DNA of 21,007 nt from Candidatus Micrarchaeota archaeon (GTDB lineage Archaea > Micrarchaeota > Micrarchaeia > Anstonellales > Bilamarchaeaceae). Both the position numbers and the translations under genes were made by a program. Under the pieces are notes generated by a model. It worked only from the letters and a program-made list of their open reading frames with translations. It had not been told where the DNA came from and ran no database searches. Each line of letters begins with the position of its first letter. Position 1 is the stretch's first letter. The stretch covers positions 1-21,007 of the forward strand of contig JAGVWJ010000039.1 of the NCBI GenBank assembly GCA_018304385.1. Direction: 5' to 3'. Of this stretch, positions 2,045 to 15,483 are shown one piece after another.

Positions 2045-2078
2045 ATTGGCAATGGGCAGTGAGCCTTGAGCAATGAGC
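2044..2078. repeat. Degenerate 7-bp tandem repeat (5 units ending in GC) between rps11 and rpoD
   Basis: GATTGGC AATGGGC AGTGAGC CTTGAGC AATGAGC. Confidence 0.7.
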
Positions 2079-2089
2079 ATGGTGATATT

Positions 2090-5225: not shown

Positions 5226-6458
5226 TTGAAACTTGTTGATATGATTAAGTATTCTGTAAATAGCCTAAAACACCGCCAGATACGGTCATGGCTAACCATG
5301 CTTGGGATTATAATTGGAATAGCTGCCGTTGTGTCCCTTTTAACTATTGGTCAGGGATTTAATGATGAAATAGAAAAACAACTATCTGCATTTGGTTCTA
5401 ATACAATTTTTGTAGCCCCGATAGCAGAATCACAGGGCACTGCTGCTGCATTTCGTGGAGGGCCAGGCACATCACCAACATCAGGAAAACTTTTCGAAAG
5501 AGATGCTGACAGGTTGAGAAGAATAGCTGAAATAGATGAAATCTCCAAGCTTATCATGGGAAGGGGAACTGTTGGTTTCAAAGATAAACAGATAACTTCT
5601 TCTGTACAAGGCATAGAACCAGGAATATTTGAGAAGACAACATTAGTAGAAATTGAGAATGGGAGATTTCTTATAGATAATGACCAATATGTTGCAGTAA
5701 TAGGATCAACTTTATCTGAAGAATCTTTTGGAACTAATAAAGTTAGCGTGAACAGTTTCATAACAATAAATGGAAAGAAATTCCGTGTTGTTGGTGTATT
5801 AAAGAAAACTGGTGGTGGTTTTGGGCCGTCATCGCAATTAGATACTGCATTATTAGTTCCGTTCAAAGATGCGCAAACGCTTTTCAAAGACTCGCTCGCT
5901 GAGAACGAAGTTGGCGCAATAGTTGTAACTATAAAAGAAGGTTCAGATGTAGAAGAGATTAGTGATAAAATAATACAGGAAATTGCTAATTCGCATAAAG
6001 TACGCGCAGACGAGAAGGATTTTAGTGTAATAAATCCAAAAACAATACAGGAAACAATTGGCGCGATTATTGGACTCGTTACTATATTTTTAGGAGCTGT
6101 TGCTGCTATATCTCTTATAGTTGGCGGTATTGGAATTGCGAATACCATGTTTACCAGCGTGCTCGAACGAACGCATGAAATAGGCGTGCTAAAGGCTGTT
6201 GGCGCAACGCGAAACGATATTCTCAAGATATTTGTTTTTGAAAGCGCAGCGTTAGGTGGTGTTGGCGGAGTGCTTGGAACAGCTTTTGGTATAATTGTAG
6301 TATATTTAGCTGGTGCTGCAGGAGCGCCTGTTTCTATTAAAATCGAGATAATATTGTTTGCAATAACATTTTCTATAGTTATTGGTCTTATTTCTGGATT
6401 TGTTCCTGCGCGTCGGGCTGCTGCACTCTCGCCGGTGGATGCATTGAGATATGAATAG
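5226..6458 (+). CDS. ABC transporter permease (MacB/FtsX family)
   Basis: RSWLTMLGIIIGIAAVVSL, VGGIGIANTMFTSVLERTHEIGVLKAVGA, PARRAAALSPVDALRYE; TTG start. Confidence 0.96.
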   Translation: MKLVDMIKYSVNSLKHRQIRSWLTMLGIIIGIAAVVSLLTIGQGFNDEIEKQLSAFGSNTIFVAPIAESQGTAAAFRGGPGTSPTSGKLFERDADRLRRIAEIDEISKLIMGRGTVGFKDKQITSSVQGIEPGIFEKTTLVEIENGRFLIDNDQYVAVIGSTLSEESFGTNKVSVNSFITINGKKFRVVGVLKKTGGGFGPSSQLDTALLVPFKDAQTLFKDSLAENEVGAIVVTIKEGSDVEEISDKIIQEIANSHKVRADEKDFSVINPKTIQETIGAIIGLVTIFLGAVAAISLIVGGIGIANTMFTSVLERTHEIGVLKAVGATRNDILKIFVFESAALGGVGGVLGTAFGIIVVYLAGAAGAPVSIKIEIILFAITFSIVIGLISGFVPARRAAALSPVDALRYE

Positions 6459-6462
6459 ATTG

Positions 6463-6484
6463 CAATGAGCCTTGAGCTGTGAGC
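6463..6484. repeat. Degenerate 7-bp tandem repeat (3 units) after the permease stop
   Basis: CAATGAG CCTTGAG CTGTGAG C; shares TGAGCCTTGAGC (6466-6477) with 2060-2071. Confidence 0.65.
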
Positions 6485-6574
6485 AAACACGCGACAGGCG
6501 CTTTGTTCACGACTGGAGCATGTTCAATGAGCCAGACACTGGTTATGAGTTTTGGGCTGAGGAGAAGAAGAATT

Positions 6575-7426
6575 TTATATGACATTTTTATAATAATTCC
6601 AGTAATCTTCCTTTAATCCTTTTATTAATGATGTAAATCTAATACCTAGTCTTTTTATTTTCTTATTGCTGACAAAAAAGCTCTCATTTGCAAATGGAAA
6701 TTCTTCTTCTTTGAATTTTTCTCTATCCGCGCTGGGATTAAATTGAATCTTAGGTTTTATACCTACAATTTTTCCCATCTGTTCTACTAGTTTTCTAAGT
6801 GTAATTATGTCATCCCCTGCGCAGTTGAATGCACCAACTATTTTGTTCTCAGTCAACAATGCTATTATATCTACAACTTCCTTTGCAAACACAAATTGTA
6901 TTTTTGCTTTCCCATCTCCTGGCAAAACCAAAGGAATGCCTTGTTTTATTCTAGAATATATAAAGTGTTCTCTATCAACATAATTTCTAGGGCCAAGAAT
7001 ATACACTGGTCTTATTGTCGCGTATTTTATTCCGCTTTTTTCGAGAATTTTTTCACATTCCGCTTTTCCTTTGTTATAATTTCCCCATAAGGGCCAGTTA
7101 CCGAGTTCTGATTCTTCGGTTAATGGAAATTTATCAGTCTTCTTATATGAAGCAACAGTCCCGAAATTTATAAAAAAATCAAAATTAAGCTGTTCGATTG
7201 CTTTTTTTGTTTGTTCACCCTTGTAAGCGCACATATCTATAACTACATCGAATTTGTCTTTTATATTAAAGTCATTGTTCCTATCTCCTTGGATGAATGT
7301 TACATGCGAATAATTCGACTCTATTTTACCACGATTAAAGATTGTTATAGTATGACCATTCTTAAAGAGTTTTTGGATTAGATATGGGCCAACAAACCTA
7401 GACCCGCCTATTATTAGTATTTTCAT
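6575..7426 (-). CDS. NAD-dependent epimerase/dehydratase family protein (atypical SDR)
   Basis: MKILIIGGSRFVG Rossmann motif, YNKGK (YxxxK), IRPVYILGP. Confidence 0.9.
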   Translation of the reverse strand: MKILIIGGSRFVGPYLIQKLFKNGHTITIFNRGKIESNYSHVTFIQGDRNNDFNIKDKFDVVIDMCAYKGEQTKKAIEQLNFDFFINFGTVASYKKTDKFPLTEESELGNWPLWGNYNKGKAECEKILEKSGIKYATIRPVYILGPRNYVDREHFIYSRIKQGIPLVLPGDGKAKIQFVFAKEVVDIIALLTENKIVGAFNCAGDDIITLRKLVEQMGKIVGIKPKIQFNPSADREKFKEEEFPFANESFFVSNKKIKRLGIRFTSLIKGLKEDYWNYYKNVI

Positions 7427-7570
7427 GTTTTTGTTTACACAATTCTGTTTTTAATAAGTTGGGTCCTAATTTTTTACTTATATTTTACTTCTATAAGTAA
7501 GACATAGAATTGCCGACGCAGCAGAAGAAAATATAAGACTGCGTCTTTATAGAGAATATAAGTAGTACGA

Positions 7571-7582
7571 CGGAAATATAAG
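7571..7582 (+). promoter_or_regulatory. Probable BRE/TATA promoter of tRNA-Leu
   Basis: CGGAAATATAAG about 30 nt upstream of the tRNA 5' end at 7610. Confidence 0.45.
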
Positions 7583-7624
7583 AATGAGAATCTAGAAGTA
7601 TAATATAGTGCAGGGGTGGCGGAG

Positions 7625-7673
7625 TCACATCAGTTTCGAGTTTCCGGTTTCGGGTCTCGAGAATGTGTCGCAA
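7625..7673 (+). other. tRNA intron 1, 49 nt, D-loop position 15/16, BHB-type
   Basis: Central helix GCGG (7619-7622) / TCGC (7668-7671); 3-nt bulges AG|T and AA|C; inner helix CACAT/ATGTG. Removal restores the D-loop AGCGGCCAA. Confidence 0.88.
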
Positions 7674-7728
7674 CGGCCAAACGCGTAAGGTTGAGGGCCT
7701 TATGGCTTAGTGCCTTCAAGTGTTCGAA

Positions 7729-7897
7729 ATTGCTGCTTTCTTAAAAAGAAAGCAGTGGCAAAGAAACACGATATTTCGTGTTTTTGGCTCAAGCCTTTTT
7801 TATATTAGAAAATATTTATTCTAAAAAGGCTTTGTCAAAGTGGCAAAAAAACTTTGACAAATCGTTACATCATAGATGTAAAGGCTTGAACGAGCAA
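7729..7897 (+). other. tRNA intron 2, about 169 nt, T-loop (59/60, or 57/58-58/59), relaxed BHB
   Basis: Removal restores TTCGAAT. Central helix TTCG (7723-7726) / CGAG (7891-7894), 5' bulge AAA, 3' bulge of 4 nt (CAAT); the exact junction can slide by 1-2 nt. Confidence 0.82.
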
Positions 7898-7963
7898 TCA
7901 CTTCCCCTGCACTTTATCCTAGTATTAGCAATAACCCTAAAATCATCCTAGCTCAAAACGCTT

Positions 7964-8155
7964 TTAGACTTTTTTCACGTTCTTTGCACGCAACCCGCGT
8001 TCGCTTGATTCAACCTCGTACTCTACAGCGTCGCCGGTCGCTAGTACTGCTCCACCTTCAACTGCCGAAGTGTGCACGTACACGTCCTTACCATCATCAC
8101 CTGTGATAAAACCAAAACTACGCGCGGTATTAAACATTTTTACTTTTCCTTTCAT
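7964..8155 (-). CDS. Cold-shock protein (CspA family)
   Basis: MKGKVKMFN...FGFI (RNP1), DVYVH (RNP2), VEYEV...RAKNV; GAGGGTGA ribosome-binding site upstream. Confidence 0.95.
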   Translation of the reverse strand: MKGKVKMFNTARSFGFITGDDGKDVYVHTSAVEGGAVLATGDAVEYEVESSERGLRAKNVKKV

Positions 8156-8276
8156 TAGATCACCCTCTTTTCATATTACTTTTGAAGCGTATAGCTTATA
8201 AATTTTTATTATAACTAAATTTTCCCGAGATCTTTCAAATAGAAATCTTCTTAAATCATAAGTCAATAGAATAACT

Positions 8277-9659
8277 ATGAGACTAACTTTTAATGGTGCA
8301 GCTGGAATTGTTACGGGTTCCTGCTATCTTCTAGAAACAACTGGAGAAAAAATTCTTATCGACTGCGGAATGTTTCAGGGTACGAAAGATATAACCAGAA
8401 TGAACTACGAACCATTCAGATTCAAACCTAACGAAATTTCTTACTTATTGCTAACTCACGCTCACATAGATCATTCAGGTCTCATACCCAAGCTAATAAA
8501 AAATGGTTTCCACGGAAAAATAATCGCAACACCACCTACAGTAGATCTGGCAAAAATTATGCTAAAAGATTCAGCTCATGTAAATGAAGACGATACTCTT
8601 CATGAAAATAAAAGACGTATGAGGCTGGGGCTTAAACCAAGAGACCCATTGTATGCGCTTAGTGACGTGCTTAGGTCATTTGAATTTTTCCATCAGATTG
8701 GATATGAAAATCCATATTCACTTACAGATAAAATCACTGTAATATTCCACAACGCTGGCCATATTTTAGGATCTTCCATAGTGGAACTCTTAGTTAGAGA
8801 AGCAGGAAAAACTACGAAGATAATGTTTTCTGGAGATTTAGGTCAGGGAGGAACTCAGATCTTAGAAGACCCTGCAACTATTCAGGAAGCTGATTTTGTT
8901 CTTGTTGAGTCAACATATGGAAATCGTCCGCGTGAGGATGCTACAATACGTGGAGAACTTCTGTCCAAAGAAATAAATGAAGCATTTGCTAGAGGCGGAA
9001 AACTGATGATCCCGTCTTTTGCAGTTGAAAGAACACAGGAATTGCTCTATTATTTGCACATTTTAATTCGTGATGGGAACTTCCCTGCTGAAATTGTATT
9101 TCTTGATAGCCCCCTTGCAATCGAGGTTACTGAAGTTTTCAAAAGATACATGAATTATTTCTCCCCAAGATTGAGAAAGGAATTCACCAATCCATTCACC
9201 TTCAATCAGTTGAAATGCCTTAGGACTGCAGATGAATCACGCAGCATGAACGACTATAATAAACCATGTATAATAATAGCTGGCAGTGGTATGTGCAATG
9301 CTGGAAGAATTAGGCATCACCTTAAACATAATATATGGAAATCAGAGAATACACTGCTTTTTGTAGGTTATCAGGCTGAAGGAACTTTAGGCAGAGTTAT
9401 TCTTGATGGTGCAAAGAAAGTTAGAATGATGGGGCTCGAAGTAGCGGTAAATGCCAAGATAAGAAAAATAGAAAGTTTTTCTTCTCATGCAGATTCTAAG
9501 CACTTGACCAGCTGGATTACTGCTCTTAGAAACAAACCAAAGAAAATTTTCATAACCCACGGGGAGCCTGCTTCAGCAAGAGGACTTGAATCTAATCTTA
9601 GGAAACTAGGTTTTCGGACACATGTTCCGCGTATTGGAGAAGTTGTTGAACTGAAATAA
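8277..9659 (+). CDS. MBL-fold beta-CASP ribonuclease (COG1236-type, no KH domains)
   Basis: HAHIDHSG, AGHILGS, SGDLG, ESTYG, AGSGMC, SSHAD and THGE motifs are all intact. Confidence 0.93.
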   Translation: MRLTFNGAAGIVTGSCYLLETTGEKILIDCGMFQGTKDITRMNYEPFRFKPNEISYLLLTHAHIDHSGLIPKLIKNGFHGKIIATPPTVDLAKIMLKDSAHVNEDDTLHENKRRMRLGLKPRDPLYALSDVLRSFEFFHQIGYENPYSLTDKITVIFHNAGHILGSSIVELLVREAGKTTKIMFSGDLGQGGTQILEDPATIQEADFVLVESTYGNRPREDATIRGELLSKEINEAFARGGKLMIPSFAVERTQELLYYLHILIRDGNFPAEIVFLDSPLAIEVTEVFKRYMNYFSPRLRKEFTNPFTFNQLKCLRTADESRSMNDYNKPCIIIAGSGMCNAGRIRHHLKHNIWKSENTLLFVGYQAEGTLGRVILDGAKKVRMMGLEVAVNAKIRKIESFSSHADSKHLTSWITALRNKPKKIFITHGEPASARGLESNLRKLGFRTHVPRIGEVVELK

Positions 9660-9714
9660 CTATACTGTGCACAATAACATAAAATTACCACCTACCTCTA
9701 ACTTTTTAATCTAG

Positions 9715-9760
9715 TCTTCCAAAGTCTCACAAGGTGGGTTAATGAAAAAAATCGAAGCGC
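9715..9760 (+). repeat. Direct repeat copy 1 of the APC permease leader and first codons
   Basis: 43/46 identical to 10855-10900; identical 32-bp core TCTCACAAGGTGGGTTAATGAAAAAAATCGAA at 9725-9756 and 10865-10896 (1140 bp apart). Confidence 0.92.
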
Positions 9761-9894
9761 TTGGCCAGATAATACAGAAGTGTATCATCGTTTGGTTTCT
9801 CATGCCATTAGCAACTATACGAACAAAAAATTACAAGATATCTTATTCTAATCTATTCAGTCAATCACCTAAGTCGTATCCGGCCAGCCTTTAA
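9742..9894 (+). CDS. Possible 50-aa ORF opened by the duplicated start (MKKIEALGQIIQKCIIVWFLMPLATIRTKNYKISYSNLFSQSPKSYPASL)
   Basis: AGGTGG ribosome-binding site and ATG copied from the APC gene; no recognisable family; may be a remnant. Confidence 0.25.
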   Translation: MKKIEALGQIIQKCIIVWFLMPLATIRTKNYKISYSNLFSQSPKSYPASL

Positions 9895-9917
9895 TAGGTC
9901 TTTTGCTGTAATCTTAA

Positions 9918-10132
9918 CTACGCTTACGACCGATAAATCGCCGATGCGATTTATGGTCCATTGTTCGATGCGTCGAACAATCGGAACCAAAATTTGGCGT
10001 TTGTAGATATCCTGAAACCGACCTTCGGTTTCAATCTATCAGCAACCTGCTGGTTGCCGATACCGACATTTTCGTGCTGATATAGACGTTTTTACGTCGT
10101 AGGGAACTGAGTCCGATTATCTCTTCCCCTAC
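9918..10132. ncRNA. Unassigned multi-hairpin structured element (ncRNA, intron-like or MITE-like)
   Basis: Perfect stems: 9933-9954 (9 bp), 9960-9981 (9 bp), 10013-10033 (9 bp, plus TAGAT/ATCTA), 10042-10057 (6 bp), 10085-10098 (5 bp), GTAGGG/CCCTAC 10099-10132. Basal stem CTTACGAC (9923-9930) / GTCGTAGG (10096-10103). The structure is directly visible; its class is unknown. Confidence 0.6.
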
Positions 10133-10177
10133 ATTAACTTTTTTCTGTAACTCTGCACCCTTTAGTTCTGTAATTTT

Positions 10178-10777
10178 TCATTTTATAGAAGCCCTAAGAA
10201 AAAATCTTGCATATAAATAACCAAATATGAATGGACCTATATGAGCTGCGTGAGCTATATTTACACCAGGAAACGGCTTAAAAATATTAAATATATCTAA
10301 AGCTTCGTAAATTAAAAAAAGTATCAAAGCAGTTCGAACTTTCATTTTTATAAAAAATACTTCGATATTTGTATTCAAAAATAATAGGACACACGCACCA
10401 AAAACTGCAGAAACAGAATCACTAGCACCTATTGCAGTTCCACTTCCCCCCAAACCTAATACTAGCACGATAGTCATGCTAATAGCACCTACGAAACCAC
10501 CTAGAAAAAAAAGTTTTAAGAGTTCTTTGCTGTTAAACTTGCTCTCAAGCAGGTTGCCAAAAATAAAAAGCGCGTACATATTTTGGAATAAGTGAATCGG
10601 GTGCCCATGGAGAAAGACGTGGGTAAAAATCCTATAGGGTTGATTGATCACTTCTGTTATGGAAAAACGAAATGCTTCACGGTAGCCATCATCCCATGTT
10701 TGAATAATAAATGTTAAAATAATTATCACAATAAGGATGTTGGTCGCACTTATATATCTTTTAAGATCGAGTGACAT
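10178..10777 (-). CDS. Rhomboid family intramembrane serine protease
   Basis: YRIFTHVFLH..PIHLFQNMYALFIFGNLLE, catalytic-Ser motif GAS(D), AHAAHIG. Confidence 0.9.
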   Translation of the reverse strand: MSLDLKRYISATNILIVIIILTFIIQTWDDGYREAFRFSITEVINQPYRIFTHVFLHGHPIHLFQNMYALFIFGNLLESKFNSKELLKLFFLGGFVGAISMTIVLVLGLGGSGTAIGASDSVSAVFGACVLLFLNTNIEVFFIKMKVRTALILFLIYEALDIFNIFKPFPGVNIAHAAHIGPFIFGYLYARFFLRASIK

Positions 10778-10854
10778 TGAGTTATTACTAAGTTAATAGT
10801 TAAAAATTTATTGATCTATTATAGAATATTGGGTCCGTATATATTTAAACTTGA

Positions 10855-10900
10855 TCTTCTAAAATCTCACAAGGTGGGTTAATGAAAAAAATCGAAACGC
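10855..10900 (+). repeat. Direct repeat copy 2 (native APC permease leader and start)
   Basis: See copy 1 at 9715-9760. Confidence 0.92.
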
Positions 10901-12264
10901 CTAGTCTGAAGAAGGAATTGGGCTTATTAGGCAGCTTTGCAATGGGATTTGCAGATGTTGGCGCTGATATATTCCTAGCACTTGGACTTATTGCAGCATA
11001 CGCACACGGCTTAATGCCACTAGCAATATTAGTTGTAGCAATCGTATATATTTGCTCTGGATTGGCTTATGCAGAGTTAGGCGCGGCAATACCTGTTTCT
11101 GGAGGATCATCTGCATTTGCAAAAGAAACATTTGGGAATTTTGCTGGTTTCTTAGCTGGCTGGGGTTTAATATTAGATTACACGCTATGCATAGCATTAT
11201 TTGCATTTGCATCTGCAGGTTATTTGTCATTCTTTTTTCCAGCAATTGCTAGTCTAATCCCATCAATAGCAGCGCTTTTAATCTTCGTATTAATGGCAGT
11301 TAATTTATTAGGAATAAAAGAATCCTCTTCAGTTAATTCTGCGCTTACGGTCATAGTAATCGTAATAGTGACAGCTCTAATATTTCTAGGTTTTAGTTTT
11401 TCATTTGATTATGAAAAATTTAAATCTGGATTGACTCCGATAGCAAAGGACCCTGGGTTTAGAGATTTCTTGTATTCAATAACAATAGCAATGGTAACAT
11501 TTGTTGGCATAGAAAGTATATCTCAAGGTGCTGAAGAAACAAAGGATCCGGGAAAGACGATACCGCGAGCTACATTATTATCTATATTTTTCGTTGTTGT
11601 ATTTGCTATTTTTATGTCTGTTATGGCGCTTGGACTCGTAACGCCAGCAACGCTTGCAGAAAATATGGAAAAACCATTAATCCCGGTTGCAGATGCACTC
11701 CCATTTGCAAATGTGCTAGTTCCAATAGTTGCCTTTGCCGGCTTCATGATATGCTTTGTTTCTGCGAACACAGGTGTAATTGGTGTTTCAAGAGTAGTTT
11801 ATTTCATGGGAAAGTCTGGATTAGTATCAAGAAGATTAAGCTGGGTGCATCCTAAATTTAGAACGCCTTGGATAACTACAATCATATTCTCGATTATTGC
11901 GATGCTACTTGCATACTTTAGCGATATGGTGCTTCTAGGGGAGCTTTATGCATTCGGCGCGCTAACCGCTTATACGCTAACGAATCTCTCTTCAATGCAA
12001 CTTAGAATAAAAATGCCAGACTTAATAAGGCCTTTCAAAATGCCATTTAACGTAAAAATAGGAGAACACGAGATATCACTCGTCTCGCTAGTTGGAATAT
12101 TCAGCTGTCTTACTATATTTATATTAGTAGCATTTCTACATGTTGAAGGAAGAAATTTCGCATTTCTTTGGTTCTTGATTGGTATTATATACTTTAAATT
12201 TTATCAAGATTATAGAAACAAAGAACAGAAAATGATCGCGCATAACAAAGCGCAATTTATTTAA
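10882..12264 (+). CDS. APC-family amino acid permease
   Basis: About 12 TM helices; LAYAELGAAIPVSGG, FVGIESISQGAEET..P..TIPRA, SRVVYFMG, HPKFRTPW, RPFKMP. Confidence 0.93.
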   Translation: MKKIETPSLKKELGLLGSFAMGFADVGADIFLALGLIAAYAHGLMPLAILVVAIVYICSGLAYAELGAAIPVSGGSSAFAKETFGNFAGFLAGWGLILDYTLCIALFAFASAGYLSFFFPAIASLIPSIAALLIFVLMAVNLLGIKESSSVNSALTVIVIVIVTALIFLGFSFSFDYEKFKSGLTPIAKDPGFRDFLYSITIAMVTFVGIESISQGAEETKDPGKTIPRATLLSIFFVVVFAIFMSVMALGLVTPATLAENMEKPLIPVADALPFANVLVPIVAFAGFMICFVSANTGVIGVSRVVYFMGKSGLVSRRLSWVHPKFRTPWITTIIFSIIAMLLAYFSDMVLLGELYAFGALTAYTLTNLSSMQLRIKMPDLIRPFKMPFNVKIGEHEISLVSLVGIFSCLTIFILVAFLHVEGRNFAFLWFLIGIIYFKFYQDYRNKEQKMIAHNKAQFI

Positions 12265-12287
12265 TTGTATTAGAATTATATTCTATT

Positions 12288-12920
12288 ATGACCAGTCATG
12301 AGATTATTCATGGTTTAGCTTATTTCATATTCCTTATTGCACTGCTTCTTACAATCTATTTTCGCGATAAGGCAAGAAAATTACCAAAGATTACTGGAAA
12401 GGAGATACGTTCGGTATACCGCAAAGCGTGGGTGGAATCTGTTCTTAAAAGCGGAGACAAAGCCCAGTTCATACAAACAATGCGGAATAATATCTCTATA
12501 TCAACTGCATTACTTGGGGCTACTATTGTTTCATTTGGCTTAATATTAAACGCAGGAATTATAAAACAAAACGGGGATATTTTTATTGCTGTTAGAATAC
12601 TTTCAATGATATCTCTGATTGGATATGCGCTTTTTATGTTACTTCTAGAAATAAGAACGCTTACATATATCCCTATAGTATCGCATGTTCCTGAGGCTTA
12701 TATCAAAAAGTATGAAAAAACAGATAAAGCAAGCTATATCGCAAAGCTTTTGCATGAATCTTTTGATTATTTTTCTAATACGGTCCGTGCATTGTTTTAT
12801 ATTGCGCCGTTACTTATTTGGTTTTACAATGTTTATCTATTTATAGTTGCAACCATGATTATTTCATACGCTATGTATCATGAAGATTTCGGAACAAAGA
12901 GCGGGATTGTCTTATTCTAA
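12288..12920 (+). CDS. Membrane protein, DUF599-like
   Basis: R..W...V....AQFIQTMRNNISISTALL and FSNTVRALFYIAPLLIWF resemble the DUF599 pattern; multiple TM helices. Confidence 0.7.
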   Translation: MTSHEIIHGLAYFIFLIALLLTIYFRDKARKLPKITGKEIRSVYRKAWVESVLKSGDKAQFIQTMRNNISISTALLGATIVSFGLILNAGIIKQNGDIFIAVRILSMISLIGYALFMLLLEIRTLTYIPIVSHVPEAYIKKYEKTDKASYIAKLLHESFDYFSNTVRALFYIAPLLIWFYNVYLFIVATMIISYAMYHEDFGTKSGIVLF

Positions 12921-12925
12921 ATTAT

Positions 12926-13411
12926 TTATTCAAAATTCGTCCTTGAAATTTTTATAAAGTGAATATCTTCTTTCTCAATATATGCAATTACTAGTTCTTT
13001 CCTTAGTTTTCCGGCAAATCCTATTGCTTGTTTTATATCTTTCATATTAGTTTGCCAGTCTCTTGGCACAACCTTCAAAACGTATTGCGTTCTATCCTCG
13101 CCAACGCGAATTCCTTTTTGATGGACACGAAAATATTCAGTAGTATCCATGCTGACTCTTGTAATATAACCGCGATCTCTTAGAAATTTTATTATTTTGT
13201 ATTTATCATCTGCAAGTGCATCACCTTTTCTTGCATTTTCCAGTATTTTATCTTTATCAAATTTTATTACTCCTTTATCTGCGAAATATGCAGCCTCTAG
13301 CAATGGTAATTTTGCTTTTCCGCCTTCTTCAATTCCTGCACCTAAACCAATCAATTTTGTAATAAGCTCACTATCACTGACCTCTAAATAATCTTCATAA
13401 AGTTTTATCAT
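12926..13411 (-). CDS. tRNA splicing endonuclease, non-catalytic structural (beta) subunit
   Basis: LPLLEAAY, YKIIKFLRDRGY, FRVxxKG, YVLKV, AGKLRKELVIAYI match the EndA fold. Catalytic Tyr is replaced by His (FRVH) and catalytic His by Arg (EDRTQY). AGGTG ribosome-binding site. Confidence 0.85.
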   Translation of the reverse strand: MIKLYEDYLEVSDSELITKLIGLGAGIEEGGKAKLPLLEAAYFADKGVIKFDKDKILENARKGDALADDKYKIIKFLRDRGYITRVSMDTTEYFRVHQKGIRVGEDRTQYVLKVVPRDWQTNMKDIKQAIGFAGKLRKELVIAYIEKEDIHFIKISRTNFE

Positions 13412-13419
13412 TTCTGCAC

Positions 13420-13878
13420 CTAAAATTTCTTAGACATCTTTCCTTTTGTATTCTGCAAGATCTGTTCTATTGCATTATTAGTTAAATTCTCTATATTCAT
13501 ATCCGCTTCGTGCGTTCCTCCAAGACTGTCTATGGTAATGCTCCCAATTCGTACTATTCTTTGAAATAGAGACTGATGTACATTAACATTAGCTATTCTT
13601 TCAAATGGTATTATAATTCTCTTAACACCTACAATGCCTGTTTTTAGGGTAATATCATGATCTGTTAGCTCTATTGATTTGAATCTATTTGCTATCCAAG
13701 TTAATAGCGATCTGAATATAACCAATATCCAAATTACTAATATTACTTGATTGTGATAATCACCTATATTACTTGGTAGATAAGGTGCTGAGAATTCCAC
13801 AAGTCCACTCATTATTACTCCAAATACAGTATATCTAAAATAAGAAGGCATGCCACTCGGGTGAAATACTTCAGTCAT
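13420..13878 (-). CDS. Membrane protein with bacterial PH domain (bPH_2/YdbS-like)
   Basis: Two N-terminal TM segments, then IELTDHDITLKTGIVG..RIIIPFERIANVNVHQSLFQRIVRIGSITIDSLG. Confidence 0.85.
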   Translation of the reverse strand: MTEVFHPSGMPSYFRYTVFGVIMSGLVEFSAPYLPSNIGDYHNQVILVIWILVIFRSLLTWIANRFKSIELTDHDITLKTGIVGVKRIIIPFERIANVNVHQSLFQRIVRIGSITIDSLGGTHEADMNIENLTNNAIEQILQNTKGKMSKKF

Positions 13879-13930
13879 ACTAATAATGGCTACTGAAGTT
13901 ATTAAAAAACCTTTCTTACCGATTGACTCT

Positions 13931-14312
13931 ATGATTACTGCTTACTGCGATGGTGCGTGCTCAGGAAACCCTGGACCAATGGGCATTGGCATAAATAAAA
14001 GAGATCAGCGAATTTATTGGAAAAGGCACGAATAATATTGCAGAATATAACGCAGCACTGCGAGCACTTGAAGAAGCGAAGAAGCTCGGGGAGAAAGAAG
14101 TTATTATTAGAAGTGATAGCCAACTACTTATTAAACAACTAAATAGAGAGTATAAAATAAAAGAAACGCATCTTAAGCCGTTAAAATTGAAGATTGATGA
14201 ATTATGTTTGGAGATACATGCTAAGTTTGAGCATGTTGAACGCGAGCGAAACAAACGAGCTGATTACTTATCTAAGAGGGCGATTTCCAATGAAACTAAC
14301 AACAAACCTTGA
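13931..14312 (+). pseudogene. rnhA: Ribonuclease HI, frameshifted near 13994
   Basis: 13931-14035 reads MITAYCDGACSGNPGPMGIGI then stops. The +1 frame from 13995 reads IKEISEFIGKGTNNIAEYNAALRALEEA...IRSDSQLLIKQL...HVERERNKRADYLSKRAI...* (TGA 14310-14312). Absent from the ORF track. Confidence 0.88.
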
Positions 14313-15483
14313 ACTTGGAAAATATTTCACATTTGAGTTATCAAAGCAAATGCCAATACATAACTGGTTTTATTATAAGGAAGGATTTGCACCACAAGTT
14401 GTAGAATGGGCAATAAAGCAAGGGGTTATTGGCTCGTGGCCGGTGGCTAGTGGCCAAATGCTAATAGCTAATAGCCAAAAGCTATTACTTGATCCTTTCT
14501 GCGGCTGTGGCACAAGTATGCTCACTGCTAAAGGCGCAGGGCTCAATGCAATTGGTTTTGATATATCACCAATAGCTGTGCTCGCTTCTCAAGTTAAATG
14601 TGAAAACTATGATAAAAATGAAATAGAAGGGATAAGGAAATTTTTGGATATTTCGAAATTACCAGAAGCAAACTTTGATTGGCAGTTTGAATTATTTTCA
14701 CCACGTGCAGTATTTCCAAGATCTAATTATAATGCGCTTTTATCATTAAGGCAAGCAATAGATACAGTGGAAAATGGAAAAATAAGAAACCTCTTGCTAT
14801 TGACGTTAGTTTCTATAATTCCACAGGTCGGCATCTTCATAAAAGACGGTGGAGTACTTCGTATAGATAAACGTAAGCACGCGATGCCTACTAAGGAAGC
14901 ATTTAGGAGAAAACTAAAAAATATGATCTATGACTTAGAAAAACATGCGGTTGTTGGTGAGGTACCAGAAATTTCGCAAGGAGATGCGCGCGCTATGCAG
15001 GTTGCAGATAATTCAATAGATATAATCGTAACCTCTCCACCTTATTTGAATAATGTTGACTATACTAAAGTTTATGGTCTTGAATTAAGTTTAATGTTTT
15101 TAGATAAATCAATAACCAAGCAGATTCGAGGCGAAAGCGTTCGTTCGTTTATTACTTCAAATGTTCCGCCAGACAGTGTACCGCCAGAAATTGGGGATGC
15201 TGGCATTAAGGTGCCGGTTATTGGTAATTATTTTTCTGACCTTGAAAAAACACTAATAGAAATAAAACGGGTGCTTAAAACCGGAAGCGCTTGCTATTTG
15301 ATTATTGGAAATTCTGTTGTTTACGGCCTGCAGATATTTGTTGATGAATTGCTTGCAGAAATGGCAGAGCGTTTAGGCATGCAAACTGAAATAATTGTTG
15401 GTGCCGAGCGAGTTGCTGATGTTAAACCAAGAAGGGTGAAAATTAGGGAGAGTATAGTGGTAATAAGAAAAACAGGATTGTAA
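14290..15483 (+). CDS. Amino-DNA methyltransferase (motif order I then IV, SPPY; likely N4-cytosine)
   Basis: IHNWFYYKEGF, LDPFCGCGT (motif I), GDAR, IVTSPPY (motif IV). Start moved from 14194 to ATG 14290, which overlaps the RNase HI 3' end. Confidence 0.88.
   Translation: MKLTTNLELGKYFTFELSKQMPIHNWFYYKEGFAPQVVEWAIKQGVIGSWPVASGQMLIANSQKLLLDPFCGCGTSMLTAKGAGLNAIGFDISPIAVLASQVKCENYDKNEIEGIRKFLDISKLPEANFDWQFELFSPRAVFPRSNYNALLSLRQAIDTVENGKIRNLLLLTLVSIIPQVGIFIKDGGVLRIDKRKHAMPTKEAFRRKLKNMIYDLEKHAVVGEVPEISQGDARAMQVADNSIDIIVTSPPYLNNVDYTKVYGLELSLMFLDKSITKQIRGESVRSFITSNVPPDSVPPEIGDAGIKVPVIGNYFSDLEKTLIEIKRVLKTGSACYLIIGNSVVYGLQIFVDELLAEMAERLGMQTEIIVGAERVADVKPRRVKIRESIVVIRKTGL
14427..14482. repeat. Eight degenerate 7-mers forming an imperfect fold-back inside the methyltransferase ORF
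   Basis: TATTGGC TCGTGGC CGGTGGC TAGTGGC CAAATGC TAATAGC TAATAGC CAAAAGC. Confidence 0.85.

What the first reader, a model, noticed from the sequence alone, without database searches (positions are those of the whole stretch)
7610..14482. Synthesis: small structured insertions tolerated by a relaxed-specificity splicing machinery
Within about 7 kb there are two non-canonical tRNA introns, a second hairpin cassette of almost the same length with BHB-like ends, 7-bp-period repeats inside an intron and inside a gene, and a beta-type splicing endonuclease subunit. One hypothesis links them: non-coding hairpin or 7-mer modules spread through the genome and persist where they are spliced out or stay in frame. 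No transposase, integrase or homing nuclease is in the window, so the mobilising activity is unknown. Each part is visible in sequence; the link is inference.
Basis: inference. Interest (0 to 1): 0.7.

Follow-up and report, generated by a model that had tools for sequence, protein, structure and literature searches.

The report
Fold-back mini-elements colonising a Micrarchaeon
This tiny archaeon (Micrarchaeota) carries several families of short hairpin and seven-base-repeat DNA modules that come and go between close relatives; they persist inside tRNA introns, between genes and, read in frame, in protein loops, and only the tRNA copies show a splicing signature.

Summary
The window holds a tRNA-Leu(GAG) that is found only after two non-canonical introns are removed (49 nt in the D-loop, 169 nt in the T-loop). 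It also holds a 215-nt hairpin cassette, two seven-base-period arrays and a non-catalytic EndA paralog.

The unifying idea holds in its weak form. Hairpin and heptamer modules are multi-copy, and close relatives show filled and empty sites. The same families occur in tRNA introns, in leaders and spacers, in the cassette, and in frame inside genes.

Three specifics fail:
- BHB-like motifs at the ends of the cassette and of the in-gene inserts are no commoner than in shuffled sequence. Nothing suggests splicing outside tRNAs, and the in-gene copies look translated.
- The broad-specificity enzyme is the three-unit epsilon2 EndA, encoded on another contig. The window's 161-aa protein is an extra paralog, not the beta subunit of an (alpha-beta)2 enzyme.
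- The cassette is not an intron look-alike. It is a patchily distributed element with a promoter-like box, whose ~105-nt core carries two inserted hairpin modules here. Its 3' tail copies a tRNA-Leu 3' end.

No transposase candidate was found.

Earlier follow-ups of this scan described related hairpin families on other pieces of this genome, and heptamer arrays in other genomes.

The parts
7610..7911 (+). tRNA-Leu(GAG) gene: exons 7610-7624, 7674-7728 and 7898-7911
   Evidence: ARAGORN calls an 85-nt tRNA-Leu(gag) only after both introns are removed. The exons match orthologs in G002 and G004.
7625..7673 (+). Intron 1, 49 nt, in the D-loop, with a BHB motif (no outer helix)
   Evidence: The BHB geometry was found by my scanner and in the minimum-energy fold. 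The intron is absent from the same-genus G002 ortholog. A homologous heptamer-built intron sits at the same site in tRNA-Leu(CAA) of G015.
7631..7658 (+). Heptamer array of family H4 (NNGTYTY), the core of intron 1
   Evidence: Tandem Repeats Finder gives period 7, 4.3 copies. The genome has 17 such arms against 0 in shuffled genomes, 9 of them inside long open frames.
7729..7897 (+). Intron 2, 169 nt, in the T-loop (59/60; equivalent cuts at 57/58 and 58/59), multi-hairpin, relaxed junction
   Evidence: Its removal is needed for tRNA detection. G002's tRNA-Leu has a different 97-nt intron at the same site. G002's tRNA-Val(TAC) carries an intron at 59/60 that is 80% identical over 134 nt. No strict BHB could be drawn by hand.
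7831..7861 (+). Hairpin with loop GGCAAAAAA (TTGACA-stem family) inside intron 2
   Evidence: It matches C59:33340-33370 at 97% over 31 nt. Other copies share the same loop on variable stems.
9715..9756 (+). Orphan copy of the promoter and first codons of the permease gene (matches 10855-10896)
   Evidence: 95% identity over 42 nt. It marks a rearrangement scar in a locus whose gene content differs from G002.
9920..10134 (+). Hairpin cassette: a core with a promoter-like box upstream, two inserted hairpin modules and a tRNA-Leu-like 3' tail
   Evidence: G015, a different genus, has two copies that are 92-93% identical, with a TATA-like box about 30 nt upstream in all three. Versions of ~105 nt without inserts occur in G080, G004 and G148. 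In the family search (G080 core as query) matches came from 8 of 176 genomes of the order, two of them tail-only.
9930..9986 (+). Insert 1: double-hairpin module that includes ATTGTTCGATGCGTCGAACAAT
   Evidence: It is absent from the G080, G004, G148, G151 and metagenome copies of the cassette. The 22-nt hairpin recurs at six other loci of this genome, identical at four and 1-3 bases off at two. One of these lies in the 59/60 intron of tRNA-Ile(TAT) on C15.
10010..10062 (+). Insert 2: two further hairpins
   Evidence: It is absent from the G080, G004 and G148 copies, and present in the G015, G151 and metagenome copies.
10121..10133 (+). Tail resembling the 3' end (T-stem 3' strand, acceptor 3' strand, discriminator) of a tRNA-Leu
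   Evidence: It matches ATCTCTTCCCCTGCA of the genome's own tRNA-Leu on C16, with one G-to-A change. In relatives, the tail plus about 25 nt downstream matches the 3' end and trailer of a real tRNA-Leu(GAG).
12926..13411 (-). 161-aa EndA-like paralog lacking the catalytic Tyr and His
   Evidence: PF01974, 35.6 bits. In the alignment to 1a79, Tyr115 is His, His125 is Arg and Lys156 is kept. It is conserved in 18 of 18 genomes of the family. The catalytic enzyme is the 399-aa epsilon2 EndA on C28.
14290..15483 (+). N6/N4-type methyltransferase gene that hosts the in-frame heptamer insert
   Evidence: Pfam N6_N4_Mtase. Orthologs occur in all 18 genomes of the family.
14429..14485 (+). Heptamer fold-back of family H2 (TRGCYAN), in frame, encoding about GSWPVASGQMLIAN
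   Evidence: The insert is absent from the G002 (83% identical protein) and G001 orthologs. It is 90% identical over 48 nt to an insert in a Trm5-like gene at C4:39738-39794, which G002 also lacks. It is the only segment with pLDDT below 50 in a model of mean pLDDT 85.

Best explanation
The stretch samples a genome-wide feature of this Micrarchaeota lineage. Several families of very short fold-back modules turn over quickly at the DNA level. They are 20-60-nt hairpins and 30-60-nt arrays of seven-base units that fold back on themselves. They are kept wherever they do little harm.

In tRNA genes they form, or sit inside, introns that the three-unit epsilon2 splicing endonuclease (encoded on contig C28) removes. 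That enzyme is known from ARMAN-2 to accept relaxed motifs. This allows two introns in this tRNA-Leu and four in a tRNA-Ile elsewhere in the genome.

Other copies lie next to tRNA ends (upstream of a tRNA-Leu 5' end; downstream of a tRNA-Val in G002) and in spacers. In protein genes only copies that land in the one open reading frame of the module, and in a tolerant loop, survive, and they are translated. The hairpin cassette at 9920-10134 is not an intron. It is a horizontally spread ~105-nt element with a promoter-like box and a tRNA-Leu-like 3' tail, and it has itself been colonised by two hairpin modules.

Shown here: the anatomy, the copy numbers, the filled and empty sites, and the shared families across contexts. 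Inferred: DNA-level mobility, translation of the in-gene copies, and splicing by the epsilon2 enzyme. The mobilising activity is unknown.
For: tRNA and enzyme:
- The tRNA is detectable only after both introns are removed, and intron 1 has a BHB.
- The C28 protein matches the ARMAN-2 enzyme (PDB 4fz2) at E 1e-129 over its full length. ARMAN-2 epsilon2 cuts relaxed 59/60 introns in vitro (PMC3239211).
- Standard tools find almost no tRNAs in 1.5 Mb: 2 by ARAGORN and 4 above the Rfam cut-off.

Filled and empty sites:
- D-loop intron.
- T-loop intron content swapped, and the same intron present in tRNA-Val of G002.
- Methyltransferase insert.
- Trm5-like and aaRS-like gene inserts.
- Cassette inserts 1 and 2.

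Same families across contexts:
- The ATTGTTCGA hairpin occurs at 7 loci, among them a tRNA-Ile 59/60 intron, the DNA just upstream of a tRNA-Leu, spacers and the cassette.
- A family-A double hairpin sits in frame in the G005 methyltransferase ortholog.
- H4 heptamers occur both in tRNA introns and in open frames.

Non-randomness.

Horizontal spread: the cassette is 92-93% identical between genomes whose orthologous proteins are 41-49% identical.

In-gene copies: 17 of 32 H2 loci lie in open frames of at least 120 aa, several of them (all five long fold-back copies) read as ..SW..ASG...ANSQ... The modelled insert is a low-confidence loop.
Against: - No transposase-like partner was found: no Y1/TnpA, no TnpB, and one integrase. 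I saw no clear terminal inverted repeats or target-site duplications. Mobility is therefore inferred from the pattern only.
- Hairpin stems vary between copies while loops and flanks are conserved. That pattern fits a structure-selected motif as well as a copy-and-paste element.
- Some arrays are shared with G002 and so are not recent.
- There are no RNA or protein data. Splicing of the tRNA introns, transcription of the cassette and translation of the inserts were not observed.
- The genome is 89% complete and relatives are 71-97% complete, so 'absent' means 'not found'.
Confidence: 0.68

Rival explanations
1. Strong form of the first reader's idea. All the small structured insertions, including the cassette and the in-gene heptamer arrays, are removed from RNA by the relaxed-specificity splicing endonuclease. 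On this view they are introns of non-tRNA transcripts.
For: - The enzyme is broad in specificity (PMC3239211).
- BHB introns in archaeal protein genes are cited in PMC12397907.
- Earlier notes of this scan report a BHB-processed circular RNA elsewhere in this genome (not checked here).
Against: - BHB-like motifs at the cassette ends and at two in-gene inserts are at or below shuffle expectation.
- The inserts are stop-free and in one frame; the two with clean alignments exceed G002 by 42 and 48 nt, the third by about 31-33 nt. Spliced sequences would not need these properties.
- The conserved cassette boundaries do not coincide with any candidate motif.
Confidence: 0.05
2. There is no mobility. 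The modules arise locally and repeatedly, by replication slippage for heptamers and by snap-back or template switching for hairpins. They resemble each other only because the same mutational process and base composition act everywhere.
For: - Heptamer units differ between loci, and arrays grade from G-rich to A-rich arms.
- Hairpin stems differ between copies.
- No transposase was found.
Against: - Identical 22-27-nt hairpins occur at five loci, with near-identical copies at two more.
- Two H2 inserts in unrelated genes are 90% identical over 48 nt.
- A 134-nt intron segment is shared by tRNA-Leu of G000 and tRNA-Val of G002.
- A 195-nt cassette is 93% identical across genera.
Confidence: 0.1
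3. The modules are functional RNA or DNA signals kept by selection. Hairpins would act as processing, stability or protein-binding sites. Heptamer arrays would be platforms for a multimeric RNA-binding protein, since all families read as NRG-N4 repeats on one strand.
For: - Loops and flanks are conserved on covarying stems.
- H1 arrays sit directly after stop codons at 2046-2079 and 6458-6487.
- H2 fold-backs fold 8-10 kcal/mol better on the sense strand.
Against: - Close relatives lack the copies with no sign of compensation.
- Copies occur in either orientation and in unrelated contexts, including protein loops.
- No candidate binding protein was sought or found.
Confidence: 0.12
4. This rival concerns the cassette only. 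It would be the end, or the scar, of an integrative mobile element that targets the 3' end of tRNA-Leu. Alternatively it would be a small RNA carried by such elements, with a tRNA-Leu acceptor-like minihelix, and not a host gene.
For: - The 3' tail plus about 25 nt downstream matches the end and trailer of a real tRNA-Leu(GAG).
- The cassette lies 2.2 kb downstream of tRNA-Leu(GAG), in the same orientation, in a locus whose gene content differs from G002.
- Its distribution is patchy and identity between genera is high.
- Its neighbours are AbiEi/AbiEii, AAA_14-DUF4143, Schlafen-like and methylase genes.
Against: - No integrase lies beside any copy examined.
- There was no match in IMG/VR viral contigs.
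- The repeat shared with the neighbouring tRNA-Leu is only about 11 of 13 nt.
- A conserved TATA-like box and a defined 5' end point to a transcription unit.
- No 5' tRNA half that would make it a split tRNA was found.
Confidence: 0.3

Closest known systems
Non-canonical and multiple tRNA introns of Candidatus Micrarchaeum acidiphilum ARMAN-2, cut by the three-unit epsilon2 EndA (Fujishima et al. 2011, PMC3239211; Hirata et al. 2012, PMC3488258; PDB 4fz2)
   Same: - Same phylum.
- An orthologous enzyme (E 1e-129).
- Introns at 59/60 with relaxed motifs, and introns in other loops.
   Different: - Disruption is far more extreme here: 2-4 tRNAs are detectable without intron removal, and one tRNA has four introns.
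- Introns reach 169 nt and are built from dispersed modules.
- A small non-catalytic EndA paralog co-occurs with the enzyme. It is not mentioned in the parts of the three papers that I read or keyword-searched.
[quoted passage not shown] 2010, as summarised in PMC4090602)
   Same: Related intron sequences occur in different tRNAs, here tRNA-Leu of G000 and tRNA-Val of G002 at 59/60. The mechanism is unknown and thought to act at the DNA level.
   Different: - Here the shared units are sub-intron modules that also occur outside tRNAs, in spacers and inside protein genes.
- The enzyme is epsilon2, not (alpha-beta)2.
Rickettsia palindromic elements (RPEs) and other intragenic MITEs (reviewed in PMC10969869)
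   Same: Short palindromic multi-copy elements inserted in frame in unrelated genes, translated into a family-specific peptide, and tolerated by the fold.
   Different: - The modules here are much smaller (20-60 nt against about 150 bp).
- The host is an archaeon.
- They also serve as intron material.
- No terminal inverted repeats, target-site duplications or partner transposase were recognised.
Cyanobacterial STRR heptamer repeats and the 'very small mobile repeated elements' (SDRs) of Nostocaceae (Elhai et al. 2008, cited in PMC5861425; details from my own knowledge, paper not held)
   Same: Tandem heptamer arrays occur together with nested hairpin-like elements of about 20-30 nt and no known transposase.
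   Different: - A different domain of life and different unit sequences.
- Here the arrays form fold-backs, enter tRNA introns and sit in frame in proteins.

Membership tests
Archaeal protein-spliced (BHB) tRNA introns | Removing the intron restores a canonical cloverleaf tRNA | tested here: met
   ARAGORN calls tRNA-Leu(gag) only after both introns are removed. The exons equal those of the G002 ortholog.
Archaeal protein-spliced (BHB) tRNA introns | A bulge-helix-bulge or accepted relaxed motif at the exon-intron junctions | tested here: inconclusive
   Intron 1 has a 3-4-3 motif with an inner helix and no outer helix. For intron 2 I could draw no strict motif, only the helix ATTGCT/AGCAAT abutting the T-stem. 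This resembles the relaxed 59/60 class of ARMAN-2.
Archaeal protein-spliced (BHB) tRNA introns | Excision and ligation seen in RNA | not testable with these tools
   No RNA data could be queried.
epsilon2 three-unit splicing endonuclease | One polypeptide of about 390 aa with pseudo-catalytic, catalytic and beta units, homologous to ARMAN-2 EndA | tested here: met
   The C28 protein (399 aa) aligns to 4fz2 over residues 11-399 at E 1e-129. It gives two PF01974 matches in one frame. This gene lies outside the window.
   Tyr is replaced by His and His by Arg, and Lys is kept, in the alignment to 1a79.
   A PF01974 search of the genome finds only this protein and the three-unit C28 protein. The genome is 89% complete.
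MITE / RPE-like non-autonomous elements | Multi-copy, dispersed, with filled and empty sites | tested here: met
MITE / RPE-like non-autonomous elements | Terminal inverted repeats with target-site duplications, and a related autonomous transposon | tested here: not met
   No Y1 transposase or TnpB was found in the genome. No clear duplication appears at the insert boundaries aligned. DDE transposases were not searched.
Split tRNA (3' half gene) for the cassette | A matching 5' half elsewhere with a complementary trailer | tested here: not met
   No GTAGGGG-type 5' half was found in this genome. The tRNA-Leu genes of G015 are complete.

The most novel reading that the evidence does not exclude
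One transposase-independent process creates and moves these fold-back modules. It might be reverse action of the splicing endonuclease and ligase followed by copying into DNA, or template-switch repair. The same machinery would then seed tRNA and rRNA introns, decorate small RNAs and add loops to proteins. The cassette core would be a mobile-element-borne small RNA that mimics the tRNA-Leu acceptor stem, for example as a decoy for the neighbouring AbiEii-type nucleotidyltransferase toxins.
Probability: 0.1. Interest if true: 0.85.

Novelty: new variant of a known kind. Interest (0 to 1): 0.6.

Why it matters
How archaeal tRNA introns arise and spread is unknown. This lineage offers dated events: the same gene with and without an intron within one genus, and one intron in two different tRNAs. 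It also shows that intron bodies are assembled from tiny modules that circulate outside tRNAs too, down to in-frame peptide loops. That ties intron gain to a general small-repeat dynamic, not to a tRNA-specific process. It gives concrete substrates for testing with the already crystallised epsilon2 enzyme. It also warns that standard tRNA finders miss nearly all tRNAs in such genomes.

Tried and rejected
- ARAGORN with introns allowed and a lowered threshold gave 173 mostly spurious calls and was not used.
- Rfam at E up to 10 found nothing credible for the cassette or the arrays.
- My first BHB scanner was too permissive: about 90 hits in 340 nt. I tightened it and judged results only against shuffles.
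- The split-tRNA reading of the cassette was rejected.
- A 16-mer metagenome scan returned almost only chance hits. One true copy was recovered.
- The IMG/VR scan for the cassette tail was empty.
- An nhmmer profile of the double hairpin recovered only the seven seed loci plus weak hits, because the stems covary.
- I did not build a covariance model of the cassette core: eight sequences at 83-97% identity carry too few changes.
- The idea that heptamers are binding sites of a HutP- or TRAP-like protein was not tested.
- The Elhai 2008 paper could not be read.

Full report
**Setting.** The window is contig C53 of a 1.53-Mb, 36.5% GC, 89%-complete genome. Genome records that share its elements are titled Candidatus Micrarchaeota. 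Relatives have genomes of 0.8-1.6 Mb. Standard tools find almost no tRNAs in the whole genome: ARAGORN finds two without introns, and Rfam finds four above its cut-off. Neither finds any in the window.

**tRNA-Leu.** Reading 7610-7911 shows acceptor strands GCAGGGG and CCCCTGC around a class-II tRNA body.
- Removing 7625-7673 and 7729-7897 gives an 85-nt tRNA-Leu(GAG) that ARAGORN accepts. Removing either intron alone gives nothing.
- Intron 1 (49 nt, D-loop) folds into a bulge-helix-bulge motif. The central helix is GCGG/TCGC, the 3-nt bulges are AGU and AAC with the splice sites after their second base, and the inner helix is CACAU/AUGUG. There is no outer helix.
- Intron 2 (169 nt) lies in the T-loop at 59/60, with equivalent cuts at 57/58 or 58/59. 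It is a chain of hairpins. Its ends pair as ATTGCT/AGCAAT against the T-stem, and I could draw no strict motif. ARMAN-2 59/60 introns are likewise relaxed, and its enzyme cuts them (PMC3239211).

**Comparisons with relatives date the introns.**
- The same-genus genome G002 has the orthologous gene with identical exons. It has no D-loop intron, and at the same T-loop site it has a different 97-nt intron.
- G004 has only one intron, at another T-arm position, and a Leu(CAG) gene of G016 has none.
- A homologous heptamer-built D-loop intron sits in tRNA-Leu(CAA) of G015.
- The 3' 134 nt of the window's intron 2 recur at 80% identity at 59/60 of tRNA-Val(TAC) in G002.
- Introns are therefore gained, lost and exchanged between different tRNAs, as described for Thermoproteales (PMC4090602).

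**The enzyme.** The window's 161-aa protein matches the EndA catalytic domain weakly. Aligned to M. jannaschii EndA, it has His for Tyr115 and Arg for His125, and keeps Lys156. It is conserved in all 18 sampled genomes of the family. However, the genome encodes a 399-aa protein on C28 that aligns end to end with the ARMAN-2 three-unit epsilon2 enzyme at E 1e-129. No separate catalytic alpha subunit was found. The window's protein is an extra, non-catalytic paralog of unknown role. It is not mentioned in the parts of the three EndA papers that I read or keyword-searched.

**The cassette (9920-10134).**
- It is strongly structured on both strands.
- It is not a tRNA, and nothing in Rfam matches it.
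- Two copies that are 92-93% identical occur in G015, a different genus whose orthologous proteins are 41-49% identical to this genome's. Homology starts exactly at ACGCTTACGA and ends at CCCCTRCA. A TATA-like box lies about 30 nt upstream in all three copies.
- Across 176 genomes of the order, the family search with the G080 core as query found matches in only 8 genomes (two of them tail-only), at 83-97% identity.
- Copies in G080, G004 and G148 are about 105 nt long. They lack two blocks present here: 9930-9986 (a double hairpin) and 10010-10062 (two hairpins). A metagenome copy has only the second block. A G151 copy has a larger second block and a further insert in the 3' hairpin.
- The cassette is thus a small element that hairpin modules have colonised. 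This is a filled-versus-empty comparison outside any tRNA.
- Its 3' tail matches the last 13-15 nt of a tRNA-Leu. In relatives, the tail plus about 25 nt downstream matches the end and trailer of a real tRNA-Leu(GAG).
- No 5' half that would make it a split tRNA exists.
- Its neighbours are accessory or defence-type genes: AbiEi/AbiEii twice, AAA_14-DUF4143, a Schlafen-like gene and a methylase.
- Here it lies 2.2 kb downstream of tRNA-Leu. Relative to G002, this locus has different genes between the same flanking ORF and the permease. An orphan copy of the permease start lies next to the cassette.
- Whether the core is a small RNA gene or a scar of integration at tRNA-Leu is open.
- BHB-like motifs around it are no commoner than in shuffles, and none matches its boundaries.

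**Hairpin modules.**
- The 22-nt hairpin ATTGTTCGATGCGTCGAACAAT in the cassette recurs at six other loci of this genome, identical at four of them and 1-3 bases off at two. Each time it is paired with a second, variable hairpin, and twice it is enclosed by outer stems that differ by compensating changes.
- One copy lies in the 102-nt 59/60 intron of a tRNA-Ile(TAT) on C15. I confirmed that gene by removing four introns of 22, 37, 56 and 102 nt.
- Another copy abuts the 5' end of a tRNA-Leu on C26. Another lies in an array of six GCGC-flanked ATT...AAT hairpins upstream of a protein gene on C38.
- Perfect hairpins with stems of at least 9 bp number 188, against 58-77 in shuffled genomes.
- In the G005 ortholog of the window's methyltransferase, an 84-nt double hairpin of this family sits in frame.

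**Heptamer arrays.**
- Period-7 and period-14 arrays are three- to five-fold enriched over shuffles, more than other periods that are not multiples of three.
- They fall into families: H1 TGRGCMN (72 arms), H2 TRGCYAN (41), H4 NNGTYTY (17) and a small H3. All give 0 in shuffled genomes.
- Many are fold-backs: a run of units followed by a run of their complements.
- The intron-1 array is H4 and the methyltransferase array is H2, so the two share architecture but not sequence. H4 arrays do occur both in tRNA introns and in long open frames.
- Arrays are depleted from coding sequence: 59% lie in long open frames, against 90% of random sites.

**The methyltransferase insert (14429-14485).**
- It is absent from the G002 (83% identical protein) and G001 orthologs.
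- A 90%-identical copy sits in a Trm5-like gene on C4, and another array sits in an aaRS-like gene. G002 lacks the first and has a shorter version of the second.
- In-gene H2 copies use one reading frame and encode ..SW..ASG...ANSQ.. peptides. Four of the other five frames carry stops.
- In an AlphaFold model of the methyltransferase (mean pLDDT 85), the insert is the only segment below 50. It forms a loop before motif I.
- BHB-like motifs at two such inserts are at chance level.
- These copies therefore look translated, as with Rickettsia palindromic elements (PMC10969869), and not spliced.

**Mobilising activity.** I found no Y1 transposase or TnpB and only one tyrosine integrase, which lies next to the C15 tRNA. 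LAGLIDADG domains were also found. The integrase is a candidate only for whole-element integration, not for modules of 20-60 nt. The mechanism remains unknown.

**Verdict.** The weak form of the synthesis is supported: small fold-back modules spread and persist where they are tolerated. The specific link through splicing holds only for tRNAs. Relative to the literature, this combines known kinds (ARMAN-type disrupted tRNAs, transposed introns, RPE- or STRR-like repeats) in a new lineage, with modules that cross all three contexts. Earlier follow-ups of this scan reached similar views of the hairpin families on other contigs of this genome, and of heptamer arrays in other genomes. I tested the points used here myself.

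Noticed in passing
G000 contig C15:7107-7397 (outside the window): tRNA-Ile(TAT) is interrupted by four introns (22 nt in the D-loop, 37 nt at 37/38, 56 nt at 53/54, 102 nt at 59/60). ARAGORN accepts it only after all four are removed. PMC3239211 gives three as the maximum per tRNA gene known in 2011. The genome's only tyrosine integrase lies just downstream, at C15:7728-8285.
   Followed up: partly
window 2046-2079 and 6458-6487: Two H1 heptamer arrays (units TGAGCAN / TGGGCAN), both starting TAGATTG(G)CAATG, lie directly after the stop codons of ORFs 1574-2044 and 5226-6458. Their placement suggests a 3'-end or intergenic role.
   Followed up: no
window 13931-14290: An RNase HI-like gene is split between two frames. 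Frame 0 gives MITAYCDGACSGNPGPMGIGINK, and the rest (EISEFIGKGTNNIAEYNAAL...) is in the +1 frame. The switch is at an A-run near 13994. This may be an assembly error, a pseudogene or a programmed frameshift.
   Followed up: no
window 12926-13411: A small non-catalytic EndA paralog is conserved in all 18 sampled genomes of the family alongside the epsilon2 enzyme. Its best solved-structure matches are alpha4- and alpha'2-type enzymes, not crenarchaeal beta subunits. It could be a relic of an ancestral alpha4 enzyme or an accessory subunit.
   Followed up: partly
window 6460-10880 against G002:C107: The locus around tRNA-Leu is hypervariable within the genus. The epimerase, cold-shock, beta-CASP and rhomboid genes of the window are missing from the G002 locus, which instead has an AAA_14-DUF4143 ATPase and an ABC transporter pair between the same flanks.
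   Followed up: partly
L048 (G015:C11) and L084 (G148:C34): In two genera the cassette core lies directly upstream of an AbiEi/AbiEii pair. AbiEii-type nucleotidyltransferases are related to toxins that modify tRNA acceptor ends (my own knowledge), and the cassette ends in a tRNA-Leu acceptor-like hairpin. This may be one shared island and not two independent cases.
   Followed up: no
all heptamer families, e.g. window 7631-7658 and 14444-14485: On one strand every family reads as an NRG triplet plus a four-base spacer (GAG/UAG/CAG/AAG-N4). That spacing recalls the binding sites of ring-shaped RNA-binding proteins such as HutP (my own knowledge). No such protein was searched for.
   Followed up: no
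L033 (G002:C146), about 40 nt after the tRNA-Val 3' end: An H4 heptamer array (CAGTTCC GAGTTTT CAGTCTC GGGTTTT) follows the tRNA 3' end directly, so these arrays also occupy tRNA trailers.
   Followed up: no
L077 (G015 ortholog of the methyltransferase): An independent hairpin-bearing insert of about 26 codons sits at the same point before motif I as the window's heptamer insert. This loop appears to be a repeated landing or tolerance site.
   Followed up: partly
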